The notes below the pieces were generated by a model that was not told the origin of the DNA, did not search any database, and saw nothing but the letters and a program-made list of their open reading frames with translations. The translations under genes and the position numbers were made by a program. Source: Sphingomonas sp. (GTDB lineage Bacteria > Pseudomonadota > Alphaproteobacteria > Sphingomonadales > Sphingomonadaceae). Taken from it: a stretch of 64,000 bases of DNA. The stretch covers positions 18,378-82,377 of the forward strand of contig DATLJH010000009.1 of assembly GCA_035538935.1 (NCBI GenBank). The letters are read 5' to 3'. This document shows positions 1 to 14,983 of the stretch, one piece after another; positions within the stretch are counted from its first letter, which is position 1; each line of letters starts with the position of its first letter.

Positions 1-522
1 GGGCAGCAGCCTGACGGCAAGCTCGCCGGCCTTGCGGCCCGCCAGCACCTCGTCCTGCGACGCCAGCGCGACGAGGCCGGGATAGACATCCTTCACGCTG
101 CGCGTGCGCGGGTCGCCGACCAGCGCCGCGACCGCCGCGACGGGCACGTCCGCCTTGTTCGCGCGGCGCACCCAGCCTTCGGCCACCACCGAATCGAGCG
201 GCATGATCGCGATGCCGTCGACATGCTGCGCGATCAGGTCGTCGATGTCGTTGGCCTGTTTCTGCACGCCGCCCTGCGCGTCGAGCACGATCGCCGCCGC
301 GCCCGCTTTGGCCGCCGCCTCGGTGAAGCCCTTGGCGATCGCCGCGGCGAAGGGATAGCTCAGGCCCACCGTCGAGAGGCCGTAGCGCCCGCCGCCGCGA
401 TCCACGGCGGCCGCGACCGTGCCGTTCGCCGCGCGCGCCGCCTGCCGCACGCCGACCAACGATGCGATCGCGACGATCGCGACCACCGCCGTCAGCAGCA
501 GGGGCAGGGGCTTCCAGCGCAT
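1..522 (-). CDS. RbsB/LacI-type sugar-binding protein, truncated by the window edge
   Basis: Not in the ORF track; translated by hand from the ATG at 522: MRWKPLPLLLTAVVAIVAIASLVGVRQ (hydrophobic leader), then SYPFAAAIAKGFTEAA...VLDAQGGVQKQANDIDDLIAQHVDGIAIMPLD, typical of type I periplasmic binding proteins. Starts 2 nt after the MaoC stop. Confidence 0.8.
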   Translation of the reverse strand, partial: MRWKPLPLLLTAVVAIVAIASLVGVRQAARAANGTVAAAVDRGGGRYGLSTVGLSYPFAAAIAKGFTEAAAKAGAAAIVLDAQGGVQKQANDIDDLIAQHVDGIAIMPLDSVVAEGWVRRANKADVPVAAVAALVGDPRTRSVKDVYPGLVALASQDEVLAGRKAGELAVRLLP

Positions 523-524
523 CG

Positions 525-977
525 TCAGGCCGCGCCCTCGCGCCGCTCGACGAGGTAGAGATGCTCGCAGGCGAGCACGGTCTCGCCGCGCTGGTTCTGG
601 ATATCGACCTTCTCGACGACGACGCCGTGCCCGGTGCGCTTGGGATGATCCCGCTTTTCCGTAATTGTGGTAACGGTGTGGATGGTATCGCCGATATGCA
701 CCGGGCGGATGAAGCGCAGCCGGTCATAGCCGTAGGACATGGCGCGCGGGTTGATCGTGGTCGCGGTCAGCCCGATGCCGACGCTGAACACCAAAGTGCC
801 GTGCGCGATGCGCTGGCCGATCTCCTGCGTCGCGCACCAGGCGGCATCGACGTGATGCGGGAAATAATCGCCGGTATGGCCGGCATGGATGACGAAATCG
901 GCCTCGGTGATCGTGCGGCCGAAGCTGCGGCGTTCCGAGCCGATCTCGATATCCTCGAAAAACTGTTCGACGATCAT
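525..977 (-). CDS. MaoC-family (hot-dog fold) dehydratase / (R)-enoyl-CoA hydratase
   Basis: [13 protein letters not shown]...RTITEADF...GDYFPHHVD...RIAHG...[17 protein letters not shown] overlap with the upstream CoA-transferase stop. Confidence 0.88.
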
Positions 978-2170
978 GATAGGTCTCCGTCGATCGCGGC
1001 GCGGTCCGCGCCCAGCCTGGGCGCGGCACGGCCGTTGGCGAGCACTTGCCCGTCGATGCGGATCGGGCAGCGGGTGAGGGTGAGCGTCGCGCCATCGGGC
1101 GCGCGGACCGCCTGCGTCGCATCGAGCGCGGCGAAGGCGGGATCGGCCCGCAATGCCGGCCAGTCGAGCACCGGCGCGGCCCAGATCCCGGCGGGTTCGA
1201 GGATGGCGAGCCAGGCGGCGGTGGTGTCCTGCGCCAGCCGGTCGCGCAGGTGGCGCTTGATCGCGTCGCGGCTGGTGAACCAGTCGTCGCGCGGGAAAGC
1301 CGCAAGCGCGGGGATGCCGAGCAATTCGCCGAGCCGATCGACCGGCGCCATCGCCAGCGCGATATATCCGTCGGCGGTCGGGTAGATGCCGTAGGGCGCG
1401 GCGAGGTAGACGTTGCCGTTGGCAATGTCGCTGCGCGGCGGCATCGCTTCGTCGCGGTTGAGATGGACCGAGAGATGCTCGAACTGGAGGTCGATCGCGG
1501 CCTCGATCAGGCTGACGTCGACGCGGCCGCCGGTGCCGGTGGTGCCGCGACGGACGAGCAACGCGAGCACGCCCTGGCAAAGCTGCGCACCCGCCATCAT
1601 GTCGGTGATCGCGAGGCCGGCGGGAACCGGCGGGCTACCCGCGTCGCCCGACAGCCAGGCGAGGCCGGATCGCGCCTGCACCAGCAGATCCTGCCCCGGC
1701 AGGTCGCGCCATGGCCCCTCCGCGCCGTAGCCGCTGACGCCTGCATAGACGAGGCGCGGGTTGAGCGCGCGCACGTCGTCCCAGCCCAGCCCCAGCCGCT
1801 CCATGATGCCGGGCCGGAAATTGTGGATCAGCACGTCGGCGCGCGCGATCAGGCGCTTGACCGCGGCGAGATCGGCCGCATCCTTGAGGTCGGCGGTGTA
1901 GCTCTGCTTGCCGCGATTGATCGCGTGGAACAGCGCGCTGTCGGAATCGAAGGCCAGATCGGCGAGGAACAGCCCCCGGCAGGCATCGCCGCCGTCGGGC
2001 CGCTCGACCTTGATGACGCGCGCGCCCAGATCGGCGAGCCGCAGCGCACAGGACGGCCCGGCGAGGAACTGGCTGAAATCGAGCACGACGAGCCCGTCGA
2101 GCGGCCGCGCGGGTGTCCCCCGATCCGCCCCCGGCGTGCTGTTCCCCGTCGCCGACAACCGCTCCTCCAA
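974..2170 (-). CDS. CaiB/BaiF class III CoA-transferase
   Basis: [57 protein letters not shown], and the catalytic Asp region [11 protein letters not shown] start. Confidence 0.92.
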
Positions 2171-2270
2171 TTAGTGATTTAATATGATGTATCTTCACAA
2201 ACGCTATGGGCGTGACTAGAGCGAGTCAACAGGTTTCGGGATAGAGCCGAAGAGGCATGAGAGGGCGACG

Positions 2271-3371
2271 ATGCGCGGGATGACGTGGGACCATGCGCGG
2301 GGATACGATCCGCTGGCCGCAGCCGCGCGGTTGTGGGCCGAGCGGACGGGCGTGTCGATCGCCTGGGATCGCCGGTCGCTCCAGGATTTCGAGAGCTATC
2401 CGGTAGAGACGCTGGCGCAAGAGTACGACCTGATCGTCATCGATCATCCGCATGTCGGCGGCGTCGCCGAAAGCGGGTGCCTGGTGCCGTTCGAGGGCGA
2501 CCTCGGCGAGATCGCCGCCGGATCGGTGGGCGGATCGTTCGAGAGCTATTGCTGGCAGGGGCGGCAATGGGCACTGCCGATCGACGCCGCCGCGCAGGTG
2601 CAGGCCTGGGTACCCGGTCGGATCGCGGCGCCGGTGACCGACTGGCGCGCGCTTGCCGCACTGGCGGCAGAGGGGCGGGTGGCGATCCCGCTGCGCGCGC
2701 CGCATTCGCTGATGAGCCTGTTCACCCTGTGCGGGCTCGAAGGTACGGGCCCCGACGTGGATGGCATCGACCTGTTTCCCGCGGGTGCGGTGCAGGCGTG
2801 CGCGCGGCTTGCCGAGCTCGCGGCGGCGGTCGATCCGGCGATGTACGACATGGACCCGATCGCGGTGCTCGAGGCGATGGCCGATCCGGCCGCACGGTTC
2901 GCGGTCGCGCCGCTGACCTACGGTTATGTGAGCTATGCCGTCGCCGGGTTCCGCCCCGTTCGGCTCGCCTTCGCGGACATCCCCGCGCTCGACGCCGGGC
3001 CGGCGGGATCGGCGCTCGGCGGCACGGGAATCGCCGTGTCGGCTTATGGCGGCGATCCCGCCGCCGCCGCCGACTTCGCGCGCTGGGTGGCGAGCGGCGC
3101 GGTGCAGCGCGACCTGTTCGCCGCCAATGGCGGGCAGCCGGCGCACGCGCTTGCCTGGGAAGCGGACGGCATCAACGCCGCGACCGGCGACTTCTATCGG
3201 GCGACACGCGACACGCTCGACCGCGCCTTCCTGCGGCCGCGCCATCATGGCTACATGGCGTATCAGGACGCCGCTTCGCATCGGCTCAACGAAGGACTGC
3301 GCGGCGGGGAAGCGCCTGCGGCGATCGTCGCGGCGCTCAACGCGCTCTATCGCGAAAGCCGCCAGCCGTGA
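2271..3371 (+). CDS. Type II solute-binding-protein-fold protein without a signal peptide
   Basis: MRGMTWDHARGYDPL...YDLIVIDHPHVG...WALPIDAAAQV. In-frame TAG at 2217 with no start codon between it and 2271. Confidence 0.75.
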   Translation: MRGMTWDHARGYDPLAAAARLWAERTGVSIAWDRRSLQDFESYPVETLAQEYDLIVIDHPHVGGVAESGCLVPFEGDLGEIAAGSVGGSFESYCWQGRQWALPIDAAAQVQAWVPGRIAAPVTDWRALAALAAEGRVAIPLRAPHSLMSLFTLCGLEGTGPDVDGIDLFPAGAVQACARLAELAAAVDPAMYDMDPIAVLEAMADPAARFAVAPLTYGYVSYAVAGFRPVRLAFADIPALDAGPAGSALGGTGIAVSAYGGDPAAAADFARWVASGAVQRDLFAANGGQPAHALAWEADGINAATGDFYRATRDTLDRAFLRPRHHGYMAYQDAASHRLNEGLRGGEAPAAIVAALNALYRESRQP

Positions 3372-4507
3372 GCGAAGCGCCGCTCGACGGCCTGCTCGTC
3401 ATCGACATGGCGCAATTCCTGTCGGGGCCGTCGGCGGCGCTGCGGCTCGCCGATCTCGGCGCGCGCGTCATCAAGATCGAGCGGCCGGGCAGCGGCGACA
3501 TCTGCCGGACGCTCTATCTGAGCGACACCGACGTCGAGGGCGATTCGACGCTGTTTCACGCGATCAACCGCAACAAGCAGAGCCTCGCCGCGGACCTGAA
3601 GGACGCGGCCGACCTCGCGCGCGTCAAGCGGCTGCTCGCGCGCGCCGATGTCGTGATCCAGAATTTCCGCCCCGGCGTCGCCGAGCGGCTGGGCCTCGGC
3701 GCCGAGGCGCTGATCGCGGCCAATCCGGGCCTGATCGTCGGCACCATCTCGGGCTATGGCGAGGACGGGCCGTGGGTCGATCTGCCGGGGCAGGATCTGC
3801 TCGCGCAGGCGCTGTCGGGGGTGATGTGGCTGGGCGGCGACGCCGGGGACGGACCGGTGCCGGTGGGGCTGTCGGTTGCCGACATGCTCGCCGGGCACAT
3901 CCTGACCGAAGGCGTGCTCGCCGCGCTCGTCCGGCGCGGGCGGACGGGGAAGGGCGGGCTGGTGCAGACGAGCCTGCTCGAGGCGATCGTCGATTTCCAG
4001 TTCGAGGTGCTGACGACGCACCTCAACGACGGCGGCCGGTTGCCCGCGCGCGCCGCGCGGCGCAACGCCCATGCCTATCTCGGTGCGCCCTACGGCGTCT
4101 ATCGCACGAGCGACGGTTGGTTGGCGCTGGCGATGATGCCGCTGGAAAAGCTGGCGCCGCTGCTCGACCTCGATTTCGGCGCGGCGGAAGCGTTCGCCGA
4201 CCGGGATCGTGTGAAGGCGATGATCGCCGATCGGCTCGCCACGCAACCGACCGACGCGTGGCTCGAGCTGCTGCGCGCGCACGACATCTGGTGCGCGCCG
4301 GTGCTCGACTGGCCGCACTTGCTGGCCTCGGAGGCGTTCCGCCGGCTCGACCTGCTGCAACGCGTGGCGCGCGCCGATGCCGCGATCGCGACGACGCGCG
4401 CGCCGTGGCGGCTCGACGGCGCGCGCCCAGAGAGCGGCACTGGCGCGCCACGCGTGGGCGAGCATAGCGCGCAGATCCGCCGAGAATTCGGATTGGATGA
4501 GGAGTAG
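3368..4507 (+). CDS. CaiB/BaiF class III CoA-transferase (second paralog)
   Basis: GTG at 3368 overlaps the previous stop (GTGA). [65 protein letters not shown]. Confidence 0.92.
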   Translation: MSEAPLDGLLVIDMAQFLSGPSAALRLADLGARVIKIERPGSGDICRTLYLSDTDVEGDSTLFHAINRNKQSLAADLKDAADLARVKRLLARADVVIQNFRPGVAERLGLGAEALIAANPGLIVGTISGYGEDGPWVDLPGQDLLAQALSGVMWLGGDAGDGPVPVGLSVADMLAGHILTEGVLAALVRRGRTGKGGLVQTSLLEAIVDFQFEVLTTHLNDGGRLPARAARRNAHAYLGAPYGVYRTSDGWLALAMMPLEKLAPLLDLDFGAAEAFADRDRVKAMIADRLATQPTDAWLELLRAHDIWCAPVLDWPHLLASEAFRRLDLLQRVARADAAIATTRAPWRLDGARPESGTGAPRVGEHSAQIRREFGLDEE

Positions 4508-4510
4508 GAC

Positions 4511-7500
4511 ATGACGGGTGGGATGAAGCGGCGGTTGGTCGGGGTGGCGCTGGGGGCGCTGGCGCTGGGCGGCGCGGGGGCGGTCGCGCAGGATCGGCCC
4601 GCGATGCCCGATGCCGAGACCTTCCGCACGCCGCCCGCCGAGACGCGGCCCGACACGCTCTATTTCTGGATGAACGGCAACGTCACGCGCGAGGGGCTCG
4701 ACGCCGATCTTGAGGCGATCCGCGACGTCGGGCTGGATGGCGTGATGGTGTTCGACGGCAGCAACGACATCCCCAAGGGGCCGGTCGATTATCTGAGTCC
4801 ACAATGGCTCGATCTGATGACGCACATGATCGGCAAGGCCGACACGCTGGGGCTCAAGGTCGGGATGCACAACGCGCCGGGCTGGTCGTCGAGCGGCGGC
4901 CCGTGGATCACGCCCGCCTTGTCGATGCAGCAGATCGTGTGGACCGAAACCACCGTGGACGGCGGCCGCACGGTGACGCAGACGCTGCCGCGCCCCTATG
5001 CCAAGCACGATTTCTACCGCGATGCCGCGGTGATCGCCTTCCCGGCATCGGCGGGGGACGAGAGCGTCTATCGCGATGCGATCGCGGGGATGACGCTGGG
5101 CGACGCCGAGACGCCGGCCGCCCAATTGACCGACCGCGATCTACATTCGAGCGCCGCGGCGGGGCCGGACGCGCCGCTGGTGATCCGGATGAAGGCGCCC
5201 TTCGCCGCGCAGGCGGTGACGCTTTACGGCGAGAAGGAAACGCCCGCGTTCAACGCGACGATCGAGGCGTCCGACGACGGCCAGCGCTGGCGCCCGGTGA
5301 CCAAGGTCAGCGTGGGGGCGGAGCGCGGCATCGAAAGCCCCGGCACCGCCAATTTCGATGAAACCACCGCGCGTTACTTCCGCGTGACGCCGAACCGCGA
5401 GGTCAAGCTGGCCGAGGCGTTGCTCTATGCCACGCCGCGCATTCCCGACTGGGACGTCAAGGCCGAGCACGATTTCGCGATGGAGGACGTGCCCGAGCAG
5501 GCGCCCGCCGACAAGCTCGCGCGCTACGCGATCGATCCGGCACGCGTGATCGACGTCACCGACAAGGTGGATGCGGCGGGCGTGCTGCGCTGGAAAGCGC
5601 CCGCGGGCCGCTGGACGATCCTGCGCCTGGGCCACACCACGACCGGCAAGGTCAACGTCTCGGCGTCGGAATCGGGGACGGGGCTGGAAGTCGACAAGCT
5701 CGACCGGGATGCGGTCGATTTCCAGTTCGACCACACCGTCGGGCGCGTCGCCAAAGCTGCCGGGGCGCTGACGGGCAAGACCTTCGACAAGATCGAGATC
5801 GACAGTTTCGAGGCGGGTCTCCAGAACTGGACCGTCAAGCTCCCCGCCGATTTCCAGCGGCTGAACAACTATGCGATCACGCCGTGGCTGCCCGCGCTGA
5901 CGGGGCGGATCGTCGGCGATGTCGAGCAATCGAACCGATTCCTGTTCGATTTCCGCCGCACGCTCGCCGAGCTGATGGTCGACAATTATTACGGCCGGAT
6001 GGAGCAGCGCGCCAACGCGGCGGGGCTCGATTTCTACACCGAGGGCTACGGCCCCGGCCCGTTCGACGAGCTCCAGGTGTCGGGCCGCGCCCAGGTGCCG
6101 ATGACCGAATTCTGGACGCGCACGCCCTGGACCGACAACCGCACGGTCAAGATGGTCGCCTCCGCCGCGCACGTCTACGGCAAGCCGGTGGTCGCCGCCG
6201 AGGCCTTTACCGGCGAGGCGGAGACGAGCCGCTGGTCCGATTATCCCTATGCGCTGAAAGCACTCGGCGATCAGATGTTCGCGCAGGGCTTCAACCAGAT
6301 CTTCTTCCACCGCTACGCGCACCAGCCGAACGTCAATCCCGTGCCGGGCATGACGATGGGGCCGTGGGGCATGAACATGGACCGGACCAACACCTGGTTC
6401 GGCGAGGCCAGGCCCTGGCTCGATACGCTGGCGCGCAGCCAATATATGCTGCGGCAGGGCCATTATGTCGCCGACGTGCTCTATTTCGTCGGCGAGAACA
6501 GCCCGAACCAGGCCGAATATGTCCGCCCCGACGTGTCGCCGGACACCAACCCGCTGATCGGGCGGCATTTCGATCCCAGGATGCCGCCTGGCTACAATTA
6601 CGATCTCGTCAACGCCGAGGTGCTGCTGAAGCGCGCGCGGATCGAGGACGGGCGGATCGTACTACCTAACGGCGCCTCGTACCGGATGCTGGCGCTGCCC
6701 TCCGACATTCGTGCGATGACGCCCGAGCTGGCGCACCGGCTGCGCGAGATGGTCGAGCAAGGCATGGTGCTGCTGGGCCCGAAGCCGACCTATTCGTTGA
6801 CGCTGCACGACGACGCGACGTTCGACGCCGATACCGCCGCTTTGTGGGGATCGGGCGAGGCGGCCGGGCCGCGCGCCGTCGGTAAGGGCCGCGTCTATGC
6901 CGATGGCGAGATCGGCGGCGTGCTCGGCGATCTCGGCGTCGGGCCGGACGCGATCTGCCGAACCGCTTCACCCGACGGGCAGGTGGTGTGGCTGCACCGC
7001 GCGCTGACGGGCGGGGATTCCTATTTCGTCGCCAACCGGCAGCGCCGCTACGAAACCGTCACCTGCGACTTCCGCGTCGCGGGCAAGGCGCCCGAATTGT
7101 GGAATCCCGAAACCGGCGGCGTCACCGCGCCCGCGGTCTATGACGTGACGGGCGGGCGCACGCGGGTGTCGTTCACGCTGTCGCCGGTCGGATCGACCTT
7201 CGTGATGTTCGAGCATCCGGCGAGCGATGCCGCGATCAAGTGGGTCGCGCGCGACGGCAAGCGCTTCGTCGATGCCGATGCGGCGGCGCCGGCGAAGGTC
7301 GCGGCGCCCGCGGACAGCTTCACGCTGTCGATCTGGGCCAAGCCCGACATCGACCTGCGCCTGATGCCCGACGAGGGCACGACCGGGCGCATCAACGAGA
7401 CGGGGAAGAACTATCTCGTTCCCGCGCGCTCGGGCCGCGATATGCACGGGGAGGGGACGGCCGTTGCGGGCCTCGCGGTCGGGCGCAACGGCGCGTTCGT

Positions 7501-8554
7501 GATCGAGCGCGCCTCGCCCGACACGGTGCCCGCCGTGCTGGTGAGCCATCGGCCGATCGCGGGCTGGACGCATTTCGCCTTGGTCTACGATCGCGGTACG
7601 CCGACGCTCTATATCGCCGGCAAGAAGGCGAAGACCGGCCTCAAGAGCGGGCGCACCGTCTATGCGGGTGGCAGCGATGCGCCCTCGCCGACGGGGGTCA
7701 CCTATTTCTTCGAAGGCAACAACACGCCGCTTCAGACCTACGGTCGCGTGCTGTCTGCGGCGGAGATCGCCGCGATCGCCGCCAAGGGCCCGCCCGCGCC
7801 GCCGATCAGCGCCGCGCCGGCGCGCGTCACGCTCGGCGAGGGCGGGGCGCTCGACATGCTGGCGTGGCAATCGGGGCGCTACAGCCTCAGCAACGGCAAG
7901 ACGTTCGAGGTGAAGGTGCCCGATCCAATCACCGTGGAGGGGGCGTGGCAGGTCGTCTTCGAGAAGGACCGCGGCGCGCCTGAGGCGATCACGCTGCCGA
8001 AGCTCGAATCGCTCAGCGACAATGATGATCGGCGCGTGAAATATTTCAGCGGCACCGCGACCTACAGCCGCTCGATCGAGGTGTCGGCCCCGGCGTTGCG
8101 TGAGGGGCGGCGCGTCTATCTCGACCTCGGCCGCGTCGAGGTGCTCGCGCGCGTCACCGTCAACGGCAAGGATCTGGGGACGGTATGGAAGGCGCCCTAT
8201 CGCGTCGACGTCACCGATGTTCTCCACGCCGGCGCCAATCAGGTCTCGGTCGCGGTAACCAGCCTGTGGCCCAACCGCCTGATCGGCGACGCGCAACTTC
8301 CCGATCCGGACAGTTATGTCGATGCCGAATGGCCGGTCGGCGAGCGCTTCGCCGCCGACGGCAGCAAGACCGTGCTGATGGCGCAGAAGATGCCCGAGCT
8401 GCCGGCCTGGTATCGCGAAGGCAAGCCCAAGCCCGACGATGGCCGCGTCACCTTCGCGCCGTGGAAATTCTTCCCCGCCGACGAGCCGCTGCTCGATTCG
8501 GGGCTGCTCGGCCCGGTGCGGATCGTCTTCGCCGAGGAGAAGACGCTGCGGTGA
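4511..8554 (+). CDS. GH106-family alpha-L-rhamnosidase-like glycosidase with a discoidin-like region and an inserted LamG-like domain
   Basis: Signal peptide; [61 protein letters not shown]; C-terminal GH2-like sugar-binding domain ([31 protein letters not shown]). Confidence 0.85.
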
Positions 8555-8763: not shown

Positions 8764-10980
8764 TTATCGATACACCCGGATGAGATAGGTCGTCGTGGCC
8801 GGATTGCCGATCGGCAGTTCCCAGCCGTTTTCCAGCAACCGCCCGTCGATCGTCGGCAGCGGCTTCGCGGCGCCGTCGAGCGGGGTCGCGGTGAGGCCGA
8901 CCACGCCGACCAGATCGTGGAACTGGAGCCAGCCGGTGACGGGCTCGATCAGGCTCGGCGCGGTGCCCCAGTTGCTCGTCACGCTGCGCCGCGCGTTCCA
9001 CGTCATGCCGGTGTTCTGCGCACGGGCGGTGGTGGTCAGCAGCATTTCATTCGAGTGATCGATGGGCTTGCCGTCGAGCGACGACAGCGTGATCACCGCG
9101 AACGGCGTCGAGATGTCGGCGGTGAGGTTCGTGGTGCGCGCACCGGTCTGGCGGACGAAGCCGACCAGCGCCTGGGTGCGCTCGGTATCGATCGTCACCA
9201 CGCCGTTGCTGCCGTCCTCGACCGACCATTCGAGCTCGCCGGTGTCCGACGCGATCGGCATCGTCTCCGCGGGCGCCTCGGCGGCCGTGGGCTTGCAGTC
9301 GAGGCACGCGATCCGCGTTTCGTGAACGAGCGGCAGGCGCTTGGGATAGCCCGGCGTGAAGGCGGGCATTTCCGACATCGGCATCCGCGCCATCTCGGCC
9401 ACCTGGTCGCGCGAATAGCTGCGCGTGATCGTCTCGCGCGCTTTGGCGACGTCGCCACGCAGGAAGATCATCGCGCCGACCGGCAGCTGCGCGATCTTGG
9501 TGGGATGCTGGGTCATGTCAAAATGGTCGCCGATCATGCCCTTCCACTCGCCCTCGAGCTTGGTCTCGAAGGTGTAGAAGAACACGCCGTCCCAATCCTG
9601 CAACGCGGCATAGGCGGCGAGGATCGGAATCTGCTCGGCGTCATATTCGTGCGGGAAGGGCTCGTTGACCTCGCTCACGACGAAGGGCTTGCCGGCCATC
9701 GCGGTGCGCGACAGGCGTTGCAGGATCGATCCCTCGGGGTCGTTGACCATCGGCGTGTTGCGCTTGCCGAAGATCGCCGGGTGCTGCCAGTAGACGTGCG
9801 CATCGACGATGTCGAAATGCTGCGTCGTCTCCAGCAGCGGCTGGCCGGGGATGAAATAGCTGTGATCGGCGGTCGCGACGATCGGCGCCTTCACGCCCAG
9901 CTCGTCGCGCAGGAAAGTGCGCATGTCTTCGAAGAAGGTGCGTTCGGCGTCGACCAGGAAATTGGCCTCGCTGTGGAAGCGCAGTTTGGACGCTGCCTCG
10001 AATTGCTGGCGGCGCATCAGCGGCACCGGCGCGCCGTCCGCCACGCCGGCCTCACGCCGGATATCCGCGATTTCTTTGGCGGAATGGTGTTTCGCGAGCC
10101 ACTCATTGTAGAGGCCGGTGAGGATCGACAGGTAATGCGGGGTGAAGTCGAGCTGGTGGCGCGGGCCGTTCTCGGTCAGCTCGCCGCGGAACCAGTTGCG
10201 CATCCAGAATTCGAGCAGCGAGTTTTCGTTGACGATCTCGACCGTCGAGACCGCGGGATCGTCGGCGTAGCGCAGCCCGGTATAGGGATTGCGATGCCCG
10301 AGCAGCATCCGCGCATAATCCTTCTGCCGCTCGATCAGTTCGGGGCCGATATAGGTCACCGCCTTGGCGACGCCGATCAGCTTGGCGTCGGGAACGCCGT
10401 CACCGGGCTTCCAGGTGTGGCCGACATTGAGATTGAAGTTGGCGTAGATGCCGTTCTTCTTGAGCTGCGCGAAGAAGTAGTCGAGATGGTCGAGCTGGGT
10501 CGGGTTGAAATGGCCCGTATCGTCGCGGCTGCTGTCGATCAGGCCAACGGGGGTGTGGGTCGCGGGCTCGGGATCCCCGGTCGGCCCGCTGCCGCTGCGC
10601 ACGCGCGTCGCATCGGGCATGTCGAGGAAATGCAGGCGGACGCAATTGACGCCGAGGCGCGCCAGCTCGGCGGCGAAGACCTCTGCCTCGTGGTGCGGCG
10701 GGATTTCGGCTGAGCCCGGGGTCCAACCGGTCAGGTTGACGCCCCAGCAGCGCAGACGGGTGCCGTCCTCGAAAGTGAGATGACCGTCGCGCGCCTGGAC
10801 GAAACCGTGCTTGCCCGCGGGCCCGTCGAGCAGGAAGCGCATGTCGGCGCGCGAATCCTGCCGCGCGAAATGATCGATGACGAAAGGAGCCCAGTCGGGT
10901 TGGGTGGGAACCTCCTGCGCCGACAGCGACGTCCCCACAAGCAACGCCGCGCCAATGGCCGATCCGAACGCTTTGCGCAT
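8764..10980 (-). CDS. Secreted clan GH-A (GH5-like) glycoside hydrolase of unknown specificity
   Basis: Signal peptide; RCWGVNL, LARLGVNCVRLHFLD, NPYTGLRYADDPAVSTVEIVNENS (acid/base-type NE), KPFVVSEVNEPFP (nucleophile-type SE). Confidence 0.7.
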   Translation of the reverse strand: MRKAFGSAIGAALLVGTSLSAQEVPTQPDWAPFVIDHFARQDSRADMRFLLDGPAGKHGFVQARDGHLTFEDGTRLRCWGVNLTGWTPGSAEIPPHHEAEVFAAELARLGVNCVRLHFLDMPDATRVRSGSGPTGDPEPATHTPVGLIDSSRDDTGHFNPTQLDHLDYFFAQLKKNGIYANFNLNVGHTWKPGDGVPDAKLIGVAKAVTYIGPELIERQKDYARMLLGHRNPYTGLRYADDPAVSTVEIVNENSLLEFWMRNWFRGELTENGPRHQLDFTPHYLSILTGLYNEWLAKHHSAKEIADIRREAGVADGAPVPLMRRQQFEAASKLRFHSEANFLVDAERTFFEDMRTFLRDELGVKAPIVATADHSYFIPGQPLLETTQHFDIVDAHVYWQHPAIFGKRNTPMVNDPEGSILQRLSRTAMAGKPFVVSEVNEPFPHEYDAEQIPILAAYAALQDWDGVFFYTFETKLEGEWKGMIGDHFDMTQHPTKIAQLPVGAMIFLRGDVAKARETITRSYSRDQVAEMARMPMSEMPAFTPGYPKRLPLVHETRIACLDCKPTAAEAPAETMPIASDTGELEWSVEDGSNGVVTIDTERTQALVGFVRQTGARTTNLTADISTPFAVITLSSLDGKPIDHSNEMLLTTTARAQNTGMTWNARRSVTSNWGTAPSLIEPVTGWLQFHDLVGVVGLTATPLDGAAKPLPTIDGRLLENGWELPIGNPATTTYLIRVYR

Positions 10981-11203: not shown

Positions 11204-12187
11204 CTAGAACGACGAGAACAATGCCTTGCGGGCGAGATCGAGCGCCGCCACGGCATCGTGGCGGTCCTGCGCGGCCTGCACCGCCTCGAAATCGAGCTTG
11301 TCGAGCGCCCGTTCGACGGCCTTCAGGAACGAGATCGCGCTGTTGGCGGCGGCCACGCTGTCCTCGCGGAAGGGGAATTGATCGAGCTGCCAGACGCCTT
11401 CCCACTTGTTCTTGCGCAGCGTGTAGAAGAATTCGAACAGCTCGATCGGGTGGACCGAACCCGCGATCATGTCGTCGTCCCAGCCGCGCAGATTGTCGTT
11501 CACGTCCATGCCGAACAGGCGGCCGTGATCGATCGCGAGCTGCGCCGCGTCCGCGGGAGATTCTCCGCCGTAGAGCGAATGGCCGAAATCGAGCAGGATG
11601 CCGATATTGGGCAGCCCGATCTTCTCGATGCCGAGCAATGTGCGCGCGACGCTGTCGTAGCTCATGTGCACGCGCGGCTCGCGCGGCTTGTATTCGATCA
11701 CGAAGTTGAGATCGGGATTCTCCGCCGCCAGCGCGCCGACGCCGTCCATGCTCGCCTGCCACAATTTGCGGTGATCGACCTGGAAGGGATAATCCCAGCC
11801 GTCCTGCCCCGGCCATAGCTTGACGTAGCTCGCGCCGAAGCGGCGGACGACGCCGGCCGCCTCTGTGATCAGCTCGTGCGCGCGGCGCCGAACGCCCGGA
11901 TCGGGATTGGTGAAGGCACCCTTGGCGAATTCGCGGGTGTAGATTTCGGGTGTGATGCCGATGACGCTCAGGCCGTTGCGATCGAGCGCGGTCGCGACCT
12001 GATCGAGCGAGATCGAGGGATCGGCGAAGGGATAGTTGATATCGACCACCGACAGATCATCGACCTGACCGGCGAGATCGATCATCTCGAGCACCGAACG
12101 CGGCGGGCCGTAGCCGTCGGTCGCGTAGCGATCGACATAGGTCGCGAAATGCCAGATCCCCGCGCCGAATTTCTGCGTGCTCGCCAT
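11204..12187 (-). CDS. apsI: D-apiose isomerase (xylose isomerase-like TIM barrel)
   Basis: [83 protein letters not shown] closely resemble, from memory, the Pectobacterium apiose isomerase. Adjacent to a split transketolase and an FGGY kinase. Confidence 0.85.
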
Positions 12188-12208
12188 TATTTTGTTCCTT
12201 TCAGGGTA

Positions 12209-13003
12209 TCAGGCGATGACCAATTCGACGCCCGCGGCGATGAAAGCCTTGCGGTCGGCGTCGGTGATACCGTCGTCGGTGATGAGCGTGTGGATGCGAT
12301 CGAGACCGCAGAGCGTCGAGAAGCTCCGCTGGCCGATCTTGGTCGAATCAGCGACGAGATAAACGCGCTCGGCCGCCTCGATCATCGCGTGCTTGACCGA
12401 GATGTCGGACAAGGCGGGGAAGGTGAGGCCCGCATCGATCGAGACGGCCGCGGTGGCGAGGAACAGTTTGCGCGCGAACAGGCCGTCGAGATAGTCGGCC
12501 GATCGCTCGCCGCTCAGCGACAGCGTCGGCGCCTTGAACAACCCGCCCGTCATGTGGATGTCGAACGAGGGCACCGCACCCAGCATCAACGCAATATTGA
12601 GCGCGTTGGTGATGATCGTCAGATTCTCGTGGTCGCCGAGGTTTGCGGCGACTTCGGTCGTCGTCGAGCCCGAATCGAGGATGATGGTCTCGCCATTCTC
12701 GATCAACGCCGCCGCAGCCCTGCCGATCCGCTTCTTCGCGTCCATGTTGACGAGATGGTGGAGCGCCATCGCGCGCACCTGCTGCGGCAGCGATTTGAGG
12801 AAGGCGCCGCCATGCTCGCGCACGACATGACCTTCGGTTTCGAGCTTTTCCAGATCCTGCCGGACGGTGACTTCGGAAACCGAGAAGGCCTCGGCGAGAT
12901 CGCGCACGCGGGCGCTGCCTTCCTCCTGCAGCCAGGCCAGGATCTTGGCCCGACGCGCTTCACCGAGGAGCCCCGTTGCCGAAAATTTCGCGGCCGTGCC
13001 CAT
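12209..13003 (-). CDS. DeoR/GlpR-family transcriptional regulator
   Basis: RRAKILAWLQEEGSARVRDLAEAFSVSEVTVRQDLEKLE (HTH), IILDSGSTT, VYLVADSTKIG. Confidence 0.93.
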   Translation of the reverse strand: MGTAAKFSATGLLGEARRAKILAWLQEEGSARVRDLAEAFSVSEVTVRQDLEKLETEGHVVREHGGAFLKSLPQQVRAMALHHLVNMDAKKRIGRAAAALIENGETIILDSGSTTTEVAANLGDHENLTIITNALNIALMLGAVPSFDIHMTGGLFKAPTLSLSGERSADYLDGLFARKLFLATAAVSIDAGLTFPALSDISVKHAMIEAAERVYLVADSTKIGQRSFSTLCGLDRIHTLITDDGITDADRKAFIAAGVELVIA

Positions 13004-13196
13004 GTGTCGATCGTCTCCCGCCTCTCGATGACGCGTCGGCGCGCTCTATCCGATGGCGGCCTAGGGCAGCGATCCTATCGTTGTCAAACCTATCGAAGGG
13101 CTGTCTGCTCAAAAACGAAAATAATCGAAAGTACCATCCTTGTGAATTCCGTCATTTCTGATAGGCACGCCGGACAAGCGAAGGAGGCGAGCAGCA

Positions 13197-14027
13197 ATGA
13201 CGGCGGCGGTCGCGCGCGTGCGCGAAAAGGCGAACTGGATACGCCGGAGCGCGATCGAGATGATCTATCACGCACGACAGGGGCATCCGGGCGGCGACAT
13301 GTCCGCCGCCGATATCCTGGCGGCGCTCTATTTCCGCATACTCCGCTATGATCCCGCGCGCCCGTCGGACCCGGCGCGCGACCGCTTCGTGATGAGCAAG
13401 GGCCATTGCACCGGCGCCTTCTATTCGGCGCTCGCGGCCGCGGGCTTCTTTCCGACGAGCGAGCTCGCCACTTATCTGCAGCCCGAATCGCGGCTCAACG
13501 GCCATCCGAACCGCACTTATCTGCCGGGCGTCGAAACCAATACGGGGCCGCTGGGGCACGGGCTGCCGGTCGCGGTCGGCATCGCCATCGCCGGGCAGAT
13601 CGACGGCGCCGATTACCGAGTGTTCGCGCTGACGGGGGACGGCGAGCTGCAGGAAGGCAGCATGTGGGAAGCCGCGATGCTCGCAGGCCACCGCGGGTTG
13701 GGCAATCTCACCGCGATCGTCGATCGCAACGGATTGCAGCAGGGCGCGCCAACCGAGGACACCAACGCGCTCGAGCCGCTGGCGGACAAATGGCGCGCCT
13801 TCGGCTGGGAGGTCGCGGACGTGGACGGGCACGACCATGCGGCGTTGCTCGCGGTGCTGGAAGCGCCCTCGACCCCACGCGACAAGCCGCTCTGCGTCAT
13901 CGCGCATACCCACAAGGGCCAGGGTATCAGCTATATGCGCGATCAGGCGAGCTGGCATCACGGCGTGCCTGACGCCGAGCAATATGCGCAGGCGATGAAG
14001 GAACTCGAATTGGACGTTGAGGCATGA
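13197..14027 (+). CDS. Split transketolase, N-terminal TPP-binding subunit (probable apulose-4-phosphate transketolase subunit)
   Basis: GHPGGDMS, RDRFVMSKGH, LNGHP, TGPLGHGL, and the TPP motif GDGELQEGSMWEA...VDRN. Confidence 0.9.
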   Translation: MTAAVARVREKANWIRRSAIEMIYHARQGHPGGDMSAADILAALYFRILRYDPARPSDPARDRFVMSKGHCTGAFYSALAAAGFFPTSELATYLQPESRLNGHPNRTYLPGVETNTGPLGHGLPVAVGIAIAGQIDGADYRVFALTGDGELQEGSMWEAAMLAGHRGLGNLTAIVDRNGLQQGAPTEDTNALEPLADKWRAFGWEVADVDGHDHAALLAVLEAPSTPRDKPLCVIAHTHKGQGISYMRDQASWHHGVPDAEQYAQAMKELELDVEA

Positions 14028-14983
14028 GCGCGGCGGCAGCAAAGGCCGGATTCGATTGCCGCGAGGCCTATGTGCGCGCGCTCGAGGAGCTGGCGGACGG
14101 CGACGACCGCATCGTCGCGGTGGTCAATGATTCGGTCGGATCGAGCAAGCTCGGCGGCTTCCGCTCGAAATTCCCGCAGCGCCTGATCAATGTCGGGATC
14201 GCCGAGCAGAACATGGTCGGTGTCGGCGCCGGGCTCGCCAATGGCGGCAAGATCCCGTTCGTCAGCGGGGCCGCATGCTTCCTCACCGCGCGCGCGCTCG
14301 AGCAGATCAAGGCCGATTGTGCCTATAGCAACGCCAATGTGAAATTGTGCGGCATCTCGAGCGGCGTCGCTTACGGCGAGCTCGGCGCGACGCACCACAG
14401 CATCGAGGACATCGCCTGGCTGCGCGCGCTGCGCAACCTGACGATCATCGTTCCCTCCGATCCGTGGGAGACGGCCGAAGCAATCCGCGCCGCCGCCGCG
14501 TTCGACGGGCCGGTCTTCGTGCGGATCAGCCGGATGCCGGTGCCGGAGATCGCGCGGCCGCAGGACGCGGCCTTCGCGATCGGCCGCGCCGAGACGCTGC
14601 GCGAGGGCGGCGACATCGCGATCATCGCCAACGGCACGCTCGTCCACCGCGCGCTGGCGGCGGCGGAAACGCTGGCCGCCGAGGGCATCGCCGCGCGCGT
14701 CGTCAACATGTCCACCGTCGCGCCGCTCGACGAGGCGGCGATCGCCGCGGCGGCGGAGACCGGCGCGATCGTCACCGCCGAGGAGGGGCTGTCGCATGGC
14801 GGCCTCGGCGGGGCGGTCGCCGAATATGTCGCCACCCACCGGCCCGTGCCGATGCGCATGATCGGTTTTCCCGGCTTCCTGCCGACCGGATCGGCGCAAT
14901 GGCTGATGGAAAAGTTCGGATTGACCGATACCGGCATCGCCGCGGCGGCGCGCGAGCTGCTCGGATCGCGGCAGGCCGGATGA
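14024..14983 (+). CDS. Split transketolase, C-terminal subunit (probable apulose-4-phosphate transketolase subunit)
   Basis: INVGIAEQNMVG, RALEQIK, GELGATHHSIEDIA, GPVFVRISR. ATGA-coupled to the N-terminal subunit. Confidence 0.9.
   Translation: MSAAAAKAGFDCREAYVRALEELADGDDRIVAVVNDSVGSSKLGGFRSKFPQRLINVGIAEQNMVGVGAGLANGGKIPFVSGAACFLTARALEQIKADCAYSNANVKLCGISSGVAYGELGATHHSIEDIAWLRALRNLTIIVPSDPWETAEAIRAAAAFDGPVFVRISRMPVPEIARPQDAAFAIGRAETLREGGDIAIIANGTLVHRALAAAETLAAEGIAARVVNMSTVAPLDEAAIAAAAETGAIVTAEEGLSHGGLGGAVAEYVATHRPVPMRMIGFPGFLPTGSAQWLMEKFGLTDTGIAAAARELLGSRQAG

What the first reader, a model, noticed from the sequence alone, without database searches (positions are those of the whole stretch)
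2271..3371. Solute-binding-protein fold without a signal peptide or ABC partners
The protein starts directly at RGMTWDH with no hydrophobic leader; the frame is closed upstream at 2217 and no permease or ATPase flanks it. It is translationally coupled to a CoA-transferase. Inference: a cytoplasmic SBP-fold protein repurposed as an enzyme, substrate chaperone or CoA-transferase subunit (thiaminase I is a precedent for an SBP-fold enzyme).
Basis: partly seen in the sequence, partly recalled or inferred. Interest (0 to 1): 0.68.

Follow-up and report, generated by a model that had tools for sequence, protein, structure and literature searches.

The report
Cytoplasmic MalE-fold partner of CoA-transferases
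A protein built like the exported sugar-catching component of an ABC transporter, but with no export signal, belongs to a large uncharacterised family that always travels with a CoA-transferase and a hydratase in deoxy-sugar breakdown gene clusters, which points to an undescribed cytoplasmic, CoA-dependent step in sugar-acid catabolism.

Summary
Window 2271-3371 (+) encodes a real 366-aa protein. It has a MalE-type fold (Pfam SBP_bac_8; AlphaFold pLDDT 96.8). It starts at the first strand of the mature fold, and an in-frame stop lies 18 codons upstream.

The whole family lacks a leader: 425 clusters at E<=1e-30, with a median of 9 residues before the conserved Trp.

One part of the observation needs correction. 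An ABC importer does lie just beyond the window's left edge. It is CUT2-type and has its own exported Peripla_BP_4 protein. In other phyla it is replaced by an MFS or TRAP transporter, or is absent. The nearest CUT1 permease is 125 kb away.

The protein's real partner is the family III CoA-transferase:
- Both occur in the same 16 of 401 Pseudomonadota genomes, always adjacent.
- Their genes overlap (GTGA).
- They are fused into one polypeptide on two independent soil contigs.

A MaoC or crotonase hydratase is always nearby. A Gfo/Idh/MocA dehydrogenase and a second leaderless SBP-fold protein often are too. The same set recurs in Hymenobacter beside GH106 and GH127.

About 25 cleft residues are near-invariant. 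I read the protein as a cytoplasmic sugar-acid-handling component of a CaiB/CaiD-like CoA-dependent dehydration module. Whether it catalyses or only binds is unresolved. I found no literature on it.

The parts
2271..3371 (+). SBPL: leaderless 366-aa MalE-fold protein (P0001), the finding itself
   Evidence: Pfam SBP_bac_8, E 2e-11. AlphaFold2 pLDDT 96.8, pTM 0.93. Foldseek TM about 0.78 to MalE. Profile search of PDB gives TMBP 1eu8, LpqY and SmoF as nearest. Starts at mature MalE strand 1. Stop at 2217 upstream.
3368..4507 (+). Family III (CaiB/BaiF) CoA-transferase B. Its start overlaps the SBPL stop (GTGA).
   Evidence: Pfam CoA_transf_3, E 8e-96, full length. No NCBIfam equivalog reaches its cut-off; the best is succinyl-CoA:mesaconate CoA-transferase at 188 bits against 700. 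Orthologues occur only in genomes that hold SBPL, and always adjacent to it. The catalytic-position Asp is kept (VADMLAG).
4511..8554 (+). GH106 alpha-L-rhamnosidase with F5/8-C, LamG and jelly-roll domains. Same strand, no terminator in between.
   Evidence: Pfam Glyco_hydro_106, E 3e-212. No terminator-like site in 1900-4700. The order SBPL, CoA-T, GH106 is conserved in sphingomonad loci, and GH106 is also in the Hymenobacter module.
2171..2270 (.). Divergent intergenic region with a conserved AT-rich element (ATTAGTnATTTTATATGATGTATCTTC ... GCTATG ... GAGTCAAC). Presumably shared promoter and operator.
   Evidence: Alignment of 11 sphingomonad loci. No Rfam match. No sigma-70 consensus match.
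974..2170 (-). Family III CoA-transferase A, 57% identical to B, divergently transcribed. Probably forms a heteromer with B.
   Evidence: Pfam CoA_transf_3, E 2e-99. Asp kept (ITDMMAG). A and B are fused in tandem in 116 of the 120 best hits to a concatenated query (Hymenobacter, Planctomycetota, Verrucomicrobiota).
525..977 (-). MaoC-like (R)-specific enoyl-CoA hydratase/dehydratase, 150 aa
   Evidence: Pfam MaoC_dehydratas, E 2e-20. Weak NCBIfam matches to the PaaZ C-terminal domain and to RipB/Ich. A hydratase is present in every related locus, and is replaced by a crotonase in others.
1..522 (-). N-terminal 174 codons of a Peripla_BP_4 sugar-binding protein with a signal peptide (MRWKPLPLLLTAVVAIVAIASLVG...). 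This is the true binding protein of the CUT2 ABC importer that continues beyond the window edge.
   Evidence: Translation. Pfam Peripla_BP_4, E 5e-46. Hydropathy 3.14. Followed by an ABC ATPase and a BPD_transp_2 permease.

Best explanation
SBPL is a cytoplasmic descendant of a CUT1 (MalE/TMBP-type) sugar-binding protein. It no longer serves a transporter. It works as a dedicated component of a soluble catabolic module. The constant core of that module is SBPL, one or two family III CoA-transferases (an A/B heteromer here), and an enoyl-CoA hydratase (MaoC here, crotonase elsewhere). A Gfo/Idh/MocA or SDR sugar dehydrogenase and a second leaderless SBP-fold protein (SBPL2) often join the core.

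The module sits in L-fucose, L-rhamnose and rhamnogalacturonan-II-type sugar loci.

Proposed mechanism (inferred, not shown):
1. The imported deoxy-sugar is oxidised to its lactone and then its aldonic acid.
2. SBPL captures, and possibly ring-opens, this acid or lactone in its conserved polar cleft and hands it to the CoA-transferase.
3. The thioester makes the alpha-proton acidic, so the hydratase can eliminate the beta-hydroxyl.
4. The CoA-transferase passes CoA on to the next substrate molecule.

This would be a CaiB/CaiD-like CoA-cycling dehydration. It would yield a 2-keto-3-deoxy acid for cleavage by LRA5/LRA6-type enzymes or an aldolase.

Shown here: cytoplasmic location by sequence, the fold, the conserved cleft, and obligate genetic coupling to the CoA-transferase, including fusions. 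Inferred: the substrate, the direction of the pathway, and whether SBPL binds or catalyses.
For: No leader, here or anywhere in the family.

MalE fold with high confidence. Nearest solved relatives are CUT1 sugar binders.

Coupling to the CoA-transferase:
- In 401 sampled Pseudomonadota genomes, SBPL occurs in 16. CoA-transferase orthologues at E<=1e-105 occur in exactly those 16, always adjacent. The next-best CoA-transferase hit is 1e-81.
- The pair also recurs in Actinoplanes (37% identity), in Hymenobacter and in metagenome loci.
- SBPL is fused N-terminally to the CoA-transferase in P0508 and P0509. The SBPL C-terminus is intact, the linker is 10-15 aa, and the contigs come from two independent short-read assemblies with identical architecture.

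Hydratase: one is always within about 5 kb. It is MaoC or crotonase interchangeably, which is the CaiB/CaiD logic.

Surroundings:
- sugar dehydrogenases, lactonases, LRA6-like FAH hydrolases, an AldA-like ALDH;
- GH29, GH106, GH127 and GH2 glycosidases;
- sugar transporters of four different classes.
No acyl-CoA dehydrogenase, thiolase or CoA ligase was seen.

Conserved cleft: about 25 residues are conserved at 95% or more at 33-40% overall identity. They are W6 H8 R10 W32 D53 D58 H59 P60 Y93 D105 Y219 Y222 G250 G251 G253 Q279 G288 Q289 P290 W296 R322 P323 Q332. R10 aligns with MalE K15. D58-H61 aligns with the MalE W62-R66 ligand loop. D105 lies two residues before the position that aligns to MalE E111.

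Precedent: CoA-bound sugar-acid intermediates have been proposed for deoxyribonate (PMC6365646).
Against: No experiment and no complex model supports a physical SBPL-CoA-transferase interaction.

Fusions are rare. There are 2 credible ones. Two others look like frameshift artefacts (3x-coverage contig, SBPL C-terminus missing).

More distant family members (34-40% identity) keep the same cleft residues but lack an adjacent CoA-transferase. They sit beside conventional dehydratases or aldolases: SGL-SDR-MR_MLE in L020, UxuA/MR_MLE/RraA in L021, DHDPS in L022. So the ligand or chemistry of SBPL is not intrinsically CoA-dependent.

Several loci also carry MR_MLE dehydratases and separate lactonases. 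This weakens the idea that the module replaces those steps.

In S. meliloti pSymB the annotated pair CoA-transferase - SBPL stands away from sugar genes. A MaoC gene upstream of the pair is inferred only from a 576-bp unannotated gap and from synteny with rhizobial loci.

Aldonyl-CoA esters with gamma/delta hydroxyls should lactonise readily. That makes the proposed intermediates chemically awkward.
Confidence: 0.55

Rival explanations
1. SBPL is a true enzyme catalysing its own step, not a binding or presenting partner. Possible steps are retro-aldol or lyase cleavage of the 2-keto-3-deoxy acid or hydroxyacyl-CoA, lactone opening or isomerisation, or opening of the sugar or keto-acid hemiketal ring. 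The His/Asp/Tyr/Arg cluster in the cleft would act as acid-base or metal site.
For: The cleft is unusually invariant for an SBP family.

The constellation H8 / D58-H59 / Y219-Y222 lies at roughly the same sequence positions as the Fe ligands I recall for FbpA (from memory; not tested).

In gamma-type operons an AldA-like aldehyde dehydrogenase follows SBPL-CoAT-CoAT-ECH (497 bits against a cut-off of 500). This implies that an aldehyde is produced, which neither a CoA-transferase nor a hydratase would make.

Some operons lack any aldolase (L017, L020, the sphingomonad module).

The same residues are kept in members without a CoA-transferase.

SBP-fold dehydratases and other enzymes exist (MqnA, prephenate and cyclohexadienyl dehydratases, DszB, thiaminase I; from established knowledge). 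L-KDF is bound by its dehydrogenase as a furanosyl hemiketal (PMC11199699 abstract).
Against: There is no homology to any known SBP-fold enzyme family; only SBP_bac_8 and SBP_bac_1 match.

No invariant Cys or Lys nucleophile is present.

Several loci already contain an aldolase-type gene: DHDPS, RraA or HpcH. In Actinoplanes and L055 an SDR plus FAH pair could do the C-C cleavage.

Confidence: 0.3
2. SBPL is a cytoplasmic ligand sensor, in the manner of AmiC. It would control expression or activity of the module by binding the sugar acid.
For: Cytoplasmic PBP-fold sensors exist (AmiC, effector domains of LysR-type regulators; established knowledge). The sphingomonad locus has no regulator gene between the two operons.
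Against: Most other loci carry their own IclR or GntR regulator next to SBPL. SBPL is translationally coupled to enzymes and fused to a CoA-transferase, not to a DNA-binding or signalling domain. Its co-distribution is with the enzyme.
Confidence: 0.06
3. SBPL is an ordinary ABC-transporter binding protein. Either its start is mis-called, or it is exported by an unrecognised route and serves the neighbouring ABC importer.
For: Databases annotate it as 'extracellular solute-binding protein'. An ABC importer lies in the divergent operon.
Against: A stop lies 18 codons upstream with no start codon in between. The whole family is leaderless. The neighbouring importer is CUT2 and has its own exported PBP. 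The module occurs with MFS, with TRAP or with no transporter. The nearest CUT1 permease is 125 kb away. SBPL is fused to a cytoplasmic enzyme.
Confidence: 0.03

Closest known systems
CUT1 carbohydrate solute-binding proteins (E. coli MalE; T. litoralis trehalose/maltose-binding protein 1eu8; mycobacterial LpqY; SmoF)
   Same: Same type II periplasmic-binding-protein fold. Foldseek TM is about 0.78. They are the best profile-to-PDB matches, E 1e-20 to 1e-15. Family motifs are shared (D..D loop after strand 3, LGG, RP). The ligand-loop positions are occupied by conserved residues.
   Different: SBPL has no signal peptide or lipobox. It has no CUT1 permease or MalK partner. It is genetically coupled to a CoA-transferase and sometimes fused to it. 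Two positions aligned to Trp residues in TMBP's LGGWH and GWNPG motifs are T252 and G288 here. Its polar cleft residues are near-invariant across the family.
CaiB/CaiD carnitine system of E. coli (family III CoA-transferase plus crotonase acting through a CoA cycle)
   Same: A family III CoA-transferase is paired with an enoyl-CoA hydratase, and no beta-oxidation enzymes are present. This suggests net (de)hydration of a free acid through transient thioesterification.
   Different: The Cai system has no SBP-fold component and includes a priming ligase (CaiC). No ligase was seen here. The substrate here is probably a sugar-derived acid, not a betaine. MaoC replaces crotonase in many loci.
DddD (DMSP CoA-transferase/lyase) and SmtAB (succinyl-CoA:malate CoA-transferase)
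   Same: Two family III CoA-transferase paralogues work as one enzyme. In DddD they are fused in tandem; in SmtAB they are two subunits. Here the A and B paralogues are 57% identical, both keep the Asp, and they are fused in tandem in many phyla.
   Different: There is no close sequence relationship; every NCBIfam equivalog scores far below its cut-off. Neither known system has an SBP-fold partner.
SBP-fold proteins recruited to the cytoplasm as enzymes or sensors (thiaminase I, THI5/NMT1, MqnA, prephenate dehydratase, DszB, AmiC)
   Same: They are precedents for the periplasmic-binding-protein fold working inside the cell without a transporter.
   Different: None is detectably homologous at the sequence level. 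None is linked to a CoA-transferase. SBPL derives from the CUT1 sugar-binding clade.
Non-phosphorylative L-fucose/L-rhamnose pathway (dehydrogenase, lactonase, enolase-type dehydratase, LRA5/LRA6)
   Same: The genomic company is the same: GH29 and GH106 glycosidases, sugar dehydrogenases, lactonases, LRA6-like FAH hydrolases and an AldA-like ALDH.
   Different: The known pathway uses no CoA esters and no SBP-fold protein. Within the library available I found no paper describing a CoA-dependent variant.

Membership tests
ABC-transporter solute-binding protein (CUT1, Pfam SBP_bac_1/SBP_bac_8) | Type II periplasmic-binding-protein (MalE-like) two-lobe fold | tested here: met
   Pfam SBP_bac_8, 44.5 bits against a cut-off of 27. 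AlphaFold2 pLDDT 96.8. Foldseek TM about 0.78 to MalE. Profile hits to TMBP and LpqY.
ABC-transporter solute-binding protein (CUT1, Pfam SBP_bac_1/SBP_bac_8) | N-terminal Sec/Tat signal peptide or lipoprotein signal for export | tested here: not met
   Stop at 2217 and start at 2271. The protein begins at mature strand 1. The family median is 9 residues before the conserved Trp, and hydropathy is low.
ABC-transporter solute-binding protein (CUT1, Pfam SBP_bac_1/SBP_bac_8) | Genetic linkage to two BPD_transp_1 permeases and a MalK-type ATPase | tested here: not met
   The nearest BPD_transp_1 gene is 125 kb away. The adjacent ABC system is CUT2 with its own Peripla_BP_4. In other taxa the module has MFS, TRAP or no transporter.
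ABC-transporter solute-binding protein (CUT1, Pfam SBP_bac_1/SBP_bac_8) | Delivers ligand to a membrane permease | not testable with these tools
   Needs transport assays. The absence of export makes it implausible.
Known SBP-fold enzymes (thiaminase I, THI5/NMT1, MqnA, prephenate/cyclohexadienyl dehydratase, DszB) | Sequence membership in the corresponding family (Pfam or PDB relatives) | tested here: not met
   Only SBP_bac_8 and SBP_bac_1 match in Pfam, and nothing matches in NCBIfam. PDB sequence and profile searches return only transport-type sugar binders.
Known SBP-fold enzymes (thiaminase I, THI5/NMT1, MqnA, prephenate/cyclohexadienyl dehydratase, DszB) | Conserved catalytic nucleophile (Cys in thiaminase I and DszB) | tested here: not met
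   No invariant or near-invariant Cys or Lys among 96 aligned members.
CaiB/CaiD-type CoA-cycling (de)hydratase system (as a model for the module, not for SBPL itself) | Family III CoA-transferase with catalytic Asp | tested here: met
   CoA_transf_3 matches over its full length in both neighbours. Asp is retained in both.
CaiB/CaiD-type CoA-cycling (de)hydratase system (as a model for the module, not for SBPL itself) | Enoyl-CoA hydratase encoded with the transferase, and no beta-oxidation dehydrogenase or thiolase | tested here: met
   MaoC or crotonase is present in every locus examined. No acyl-CoA dehydrogenase or thiolase appears in the annotated neighbourhoods.
CaiB/CaiD-type CoA-cycling (de)hydratase system (as a model for the module, not for SBPL itself) | Demonstrated CoA transfer to the substrate, followed by hydration or dehydration of the thioester | not testable with these tools
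   Requires enzyme assays.
FbpA-type metal-binding SBPs | His/Glu/Tyr/Tyr metal site in the cleft | not tested
   H8, D58, Y219 and Y222 lie at roughly comparable sequence positions. This rests on recalled FbpA numbering.

The most novel reading that the evidence does not exclude
SBPL would be the first example of a binding-protein-dependent soluble enzyme. A cytoplasmic Venus-flytrap protein, descended from an ABC-transporter receptor, would capture a deoxy-sugar acid or lactone and dock on an A/B family III CoA-transferase (or be fused to it). This would start a previously unrecognised thioester-based dehydration route for aldonic acids from L-fucose, L-rhamnose or the rare RG-II acid sugars such as aceric acid. 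A second leaderless SBP-fold protein (SBPL2) would do the analogous job for the Gfo/Idh/MocA sugar dehydrogenase.
Probability: 0.25. Interest if true: 0.88.

Novelty: new variant of a known kind. Interest (0 to 1): 0.72.

Why it matters
Thousands of genes in public databases are labelled 'extracellular solute-binding protein' or 'sugar ABC transporter substrate-binding protein' although they cannot leave the cytoplasm and have no transporter. This family has at least 425 clusters at 50% identity, spans at least three named phyla (Pseudomonadota, Bacteroidota, Actinomycetota) and is carried on 147 plasmid records including S. meliloti pSymB.

If the coupling to CoA-transferases reflects a real partnership, three things follow:
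- It would reveal a new way of using the Venus-flytrap fold.
- It would reveal a CoA-dependent branch of oxidative deoxy-sugar catabolism. That branch bears on the breakdown of pectin (RG-II), fucoidan and other fucose- or rhamnose-rich glycans.
- It would correct transporter inventories and metabolic reconstructions.

The system is directly testable in laboratory strains such as S. meliloti 1021.

Tried and rejected
- Literature. Nine full-text searches found no paper on a leaderless SBP-fold protein with CoA-transferases, and none on a CoA-dependent fucose, rhamnose or aceric-acid pathway. Two fucose papers were opened and hold nothing relevant.
- PDB. There is no solved member. Foldseek returns only MalE fusion constructs.
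- NCBIfam. No model matches SBPL, and no equivalog matches the CoA-transferases, MaoC or Gfo protein.
- S. meliloti 1021 locus tags. PLSDB carries no annotation for pSymB, so published omics data could not be tied to the genes.
- Fusions. P0481 and P0510 are rejected as probable frameshift artefacts. The L055 contig has 3x coverage, the SBPL C-terminus is replaced by unrelated residues, and the upstream Gfo gene is truncated.
- RNA elements. No riboswitch or other RNA element, consensus promoter or terminator was found around the start.
- Lactate as substrate. I considered that the module handles L-lactate via lactoyl-CoA and rejected it. A MaoC or crotonase cannot dehydrate a 2-hydroxyacyl-CoA (established chemistry).
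- Pocket geometry. It could not be examined because model coordinates are not exposed.
- Specific sugar. Aceric acid, L-fucose and L-rhamnose all remain possible; none could be assigned.
Full report
**The gene**

Window 2271-3371 (+) is a genuine coding region.
- Third-position GC is 0.84 in a 67% GC genome.
- A GAGAGGG ribosome-binding motif lies 6 nt upstream.
- The protein has 2,911 homologues at E<=1e-3.

The genome is a sphingomonad, probably a Stakelama. The best relative, from an uncultured Stakelama MAG, is 95% identical.

The 366-aa product (P0001, here called SBPL) matches Pfam SBP_bac_8 (44.5 bits against a cut-off of 27) and more weakly SBP_bac_1. No NCBIfam model matches it.

AlphaFold2 with a 96-sequence alignment gives pLDDT 96.8 and pTM 0.93. 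Foldseek finds MalE with TM about 0.78. A family profile searched against PDB sequences ranks T. litoralis trehalose/maltose-binding protein, LpqY, SmoF and MalE3 first, at E 1e-20 to 1e-15. SBPL therefore descends from the CUT1 carbohydrate-binding clade. No member of its own family has been solved.

**No export signal, here or in the family**

- An in-frame TAG lies at 2217, and no ATG, GTG or TTG lies between it and the ATG at 2271.
- Residues 9-134 align with residues 14-138 of mature MalE, so the protein starts at the first beta-strand of the mature fold.
- All 120 closest homologues are 354-389 aa long and cover 95-100% of the query.
- In an exhaustive HMMER search of 1.84 billion cluster representatives, 425 clusters match at E<=1e-30 and 1,129 at E<=1e-10. 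In the best 150, down to 34% identity, query residue 1 aligns to residues 1-11 of nearly all.
- In the 96-sequence alignment the median number of residues before the conserved Trp6 is 9. The ten longest extensions (15-39 residues) are polar or charged.
- The maximum N-terminal hydropathy has a family median of 0.89. Exported binding proteins from the same loci score 1.9-3.8.

**The ABC question**

That is true inside the window, but the window truncates the divergent operon. On the minus strand that operon runs as follows:
1. CoA-transferase A (974-2170).
2. MaoC (525-977).
3. A Peripla_BP_4 protein with a clear signal peptide (window 522 to -485).
4. Beyond the window edge: an RbsA-like double ATPase, a BPD_transp_2 permease, a second leaderless SBP-fold gene and a Gfo/Idh/MocA oxidoreductase.

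So an ABC importer is 0.5-3 kb away, but it is a complete CUT2 system with its own exported receptor.

A MalE-type protein would need two BPD_transp_1 permeases and a MalK-type ATPase. The nearest BPD_transp_1 gene in the 3.4-Mb genome is 125 kb away.

The orthologous module also uses other transporters, or none:
- an MFS transporter in Hymenobacter and in soil contigs;
- an MFS sugar porter in L017;
- a TRAP system in L043 and L047;
- no adjacent transporter in S. meliloti pSymB.

**The real partner**

*Co-distribution.* In 401 evenly sampled Pseudomonadota genomes, SBPL occurs in 16. All 16 top loci have a family III CoA-transferase directly adjacent. Searching the same 401 genomes with the downstream CoA-transferase gives hits at E<=1e-105 in exactly those 16 genomes, all adjacent to SBPL. 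The next-best hit anywhere is 1e-81. The co-distribution is therefore 16/16 against 0/385.

*Gene orders.* The pair recurs in several arrangements:
- SBPL - CoA-T - CoA-T - crotonase - ALDH (L047, L049, L050).
- MaoC - CoA-T - SBPL in rhizobia. On S. meliloti pSymB the table lists CoA-T - SBPL after a 576-bp unannotated gap that would fit a MaoC gene.
- SDR - CoA-T - SBPL - crotonase - FAH in Actinoplanes.
- MFS - SDR - CoA-T - crotonase - SBPL - lactonase in L017.

*Overlap.* In this window the SBPL stop and the CoA-transferase start overlap (GTGA).

*Fusions.* A search with the two proteins concatenated found four SBPL-CoA-transferase fusions.
- Two look like frameshift artefacts: P0481, on a 3x-coverage contig whose upstream Gfo gene is also truncated, and P0510.
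- P0508 and P0509 carry a complete SBPL, a 10-15-residue linker and a complete CoA-transferase.
- These two come from two independent short-read assemblies. On the longer contig (L057) the order is Gfo, the SBPL-CoA-T fusion, SBPL2, MaoC, GH29, MFS, Asp/Glu racemase. The shorter one (L058) holds the fusion, then SBPL2, with cut genes at both ends.
- I take these two as genuine Rosetta-stone evidence.

*Tandem CoA-transferases.* In the same search, 116 of the 120 best hits were tandem CoA-T-CoA-T fusions from Hymenobacter, Planctomycetota, Verrucomicrobiota and others. The two paralogues flanking SBPL here are 57% identical, and both keep the Asp at the catalytic position. They therefore probably form an A/B heteromer, as in SmtAB or DddD.

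**A conserved module across phyla**

Hymenobacter convexus (Bacteroidota) carries this gene order:
- GH2, GH2;
- SBPL (39% identical to the window protein, leaderless);
- CoA-T-CoA-T;
- SBPL2 (45%, leaderless);
- Gfo (47%);
- MaoC (63%);
- MFS, GH106, GH127.

Apart from the transporter, this is the same set as in the window and its left flank.

SBPL2 is a separate family; BLASTP finds no significant similarity to SBPL. It too is uniformly leaderless: 120 of 120 homologues are 384-399 aa with 92-100% coverage. In this genome its ATG overlaps the stop of the ABC permease gene.

The wider neighbourhood here includes the following:
- GH106, GH29, and GH127-like and GH140-like enzymes;
- a RuBisCO-like protein and an Asp/Glu-racemase-like protein;
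- a xylose-isomerase-like protein, a DeoR regulator and a split transketolase.

Together these look like a locus for rhamnogalacturonan-II-type or fucose/rhamnose-rich glycans.

[quoted passage not shown] They also add lactonases, SDRs and MR_MLE dehydratases. No acyl-CoA dehydrogenase, thiolase or CoA ligase was seen.

**The cleft**

Across 96 members sharing 33-40% identity with the query, 12 columns are invariant and about 24 more are conserved at 90% or above. The conserved residues include W6, H8, R10, W32, D53, D58, H59, P60, Y93, D105, Y219, Y222, G250, G251, G253, Q279, G288, Q289, P290, W296, R322, P323 and Q332.

By alignment to MalE:
- R10 corresponds to K15;
- D58-H61 corresponds to the W62-R66 ligand loop;
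- D105 lies two residues before the E111 position on the same strand.

R322 aligns with the Arg of the RP motif of TMBP. Two positions aligned to Trp residues in TMBP's LGGWH and GWNPG motifs are T252 and G288 here.

A polar cleft rich in basic and His residues suits an anionic, hydroxylated ligand. Conservation this tight is more typical of an active site than of a transport receptor.

The same constellation is kept in distant members that lack a CoA-transferase neighbour and sit beside conventional sugar-acid enzymes:
- L020: SGL lactonase, SDR, MR_MLE, then SBPL;
- L021: UxuA, SBPL, MR_MLE, RraA;
- L022: DHDPS.

So what SBPL recognises is probably a sugar acid, lactone or keto-deoxy acid, not CoA itself.

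**Mechanism proposed**

- Shown by sequence evidence: SBPL is cytoplasmic, folds like MalE, has a conserved cleft, and is genetically inseparable from a family III CoA-transferase with which it can be fused.
- Inferred: the module is a CaiB/CaiD-like CoA-cycling (de)hydratase for a deoxy-sugar-derived acid. The steps would be sugar to lactone or acid (Gfo or SDR), thioesterification (CoA-T A/B), then beta-elimination (MaoC or crotonase). CoA then passes to the next substrate, releasing a 2-keto-3-deoxy acid for LRA5/LRA6-type or aldolase cleavage.
- SBPL would capture, and perhaps ring-open, the acid or lactone for the transferase.
- CoA-bound sugar acids have a published precedent in deoxyribonate catabolism (PMC6365646).
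- The main rival is that SBPL is itself an enzyme (lyase or aldolase, lactone or hemiketal opener). The cleft invariance and the aldehyde dehydrogenase that follows the operon in three taxa support this rival. I cannot separate the two readings in silico.
- Sensor and transporter roles are unlikely.

**Novelty**

Within the searchable library I found nothing on this family, and nothing on a CoA-dependent fucose, rhamnose or aceric-acid route.

Notes from other agents of this scan describe the same pairing in other genomes and reach similar readings. They are leads, not independent evidence.

The SBP fold working in the cytoplasm is known (thiaminase I, MqnA, prephenate dehydratase, DszB, AmiC). 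A MalE-clade protein tied to a CoA-transferase is not. I therefore class SBPL as a new variant of a known kind, with a real chance of being something more.

Noticed in passing
outside the window: contig C9 about 14043-15242 (-), i.e. window -4334 to -3136: A second leaderless SBP-fold gene (SBPL2; 396 aa; MTATLRIAVRKF...; SBP_bac_1). Its ATG overlaps the stop of the CUT2 permease gene, and a Gfo/Idh/MocA gene follows it. BLASTP finds no significant similarity to SBPL. It forms its own uniformly leaderless family and co-occurs with SBPL in sphingomonads, in Hymenobacter (L056) and on soil contigs (L043, L055, L057, L058).
   Followed up: partly
window 974-2170 (-) and 3368-4507 (+); proteins P0391-P0507: The two flanking CoA-transferase paralogues are 57% identical and both keep the Asp. 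They are encoded as one tandem-fused polypeptide of about 770-830 aa in 116 of the 120 best hits (Hymenobacter, Planctomycetota, Verrucomicrobiota, Bifidobacteriaceae). This suggests an A/B heteromeric enzyme, as in DddD or SmtAB.
   Followed up: partly
L057 5846-8128 and L058 315-2600: Natural SBPL-CoA-transferase fusion proteins (P0508, P0509) occur on two independent soil-metagenome contigs. On L057 the order is Gfo, fusion, SBPL2, MaoC, GH29, MFS, Asp/Glu racemase. Two further apparent fusions (P0481, P0510) look like frameshift artefacts.
   Followed up: yes
window 2171-2270: The divergent intergenic region carries an AT-rich block (ATTAGTnATTTTATATGATGTATCTTC), then GCTATG and GAGTCAAC. 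These are conserved in 11 sphingomonad loci and are a candidate shared operator or promoter. No regulator gene lies in the immediate module here, whereas most other taxa have IclR or GntR next to SBPL.
   Followed up: partly
window 8764-10980 (-): A 738-aa ORF with strong coding signal (GC3 0.87) has no Pfam match at E<=0.01. It lies between the GH106 gene and the xylose-isomerase-like gene.
   Followed up: no
window 11204-14983: A xylose-isomerase-like TIM barrel, a DeoR regulator and a split transketolase (N and C halves) lie together. Only the Pfam families were checked here.
   Followed up: partly
outside the window: contig C9 376-10919: The upstream flank holds GH127-like, RuBisCO-like (RLP), GH140-like, Asp/Glu-racemase-like and GH29-like genes, identified by eye from translations. 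An Asp/Glu racemase and a GH29 gene are also in the fusion-bearing soil contig L057, so they may belong to the extended module.
   Followed up: no
L053 / NC_003078.1 730783-733585 (S. meliloti pSymB): S. meliloti carries CoA-T - SBPL (57% identity) on pSymB next to traA, away from sugar genes; a 576-bp unannotated gap upstream would fit a MaoC gene. A 36%-identity paralogue lies on a second, smaller Sinorhizobium replicon (probably pSymA, judged by record size). In all, 147 plasmid records hold a homologue. The family is patchy within the window's own genus (3 of 6 genomes). This suggests a mobile accessory module and gives a tractable laboratory host.
   Followed up: partly
L047, L049, L050: A five-gene operon SBPL - CoA-T - CoA-T - crotonase - AldA-like aldehyde dehydrogenase occurs in three distant Pseudomonadota. 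The ALDH implies that the operon's chemistry produces an aldehyde.
   Followed up: partly
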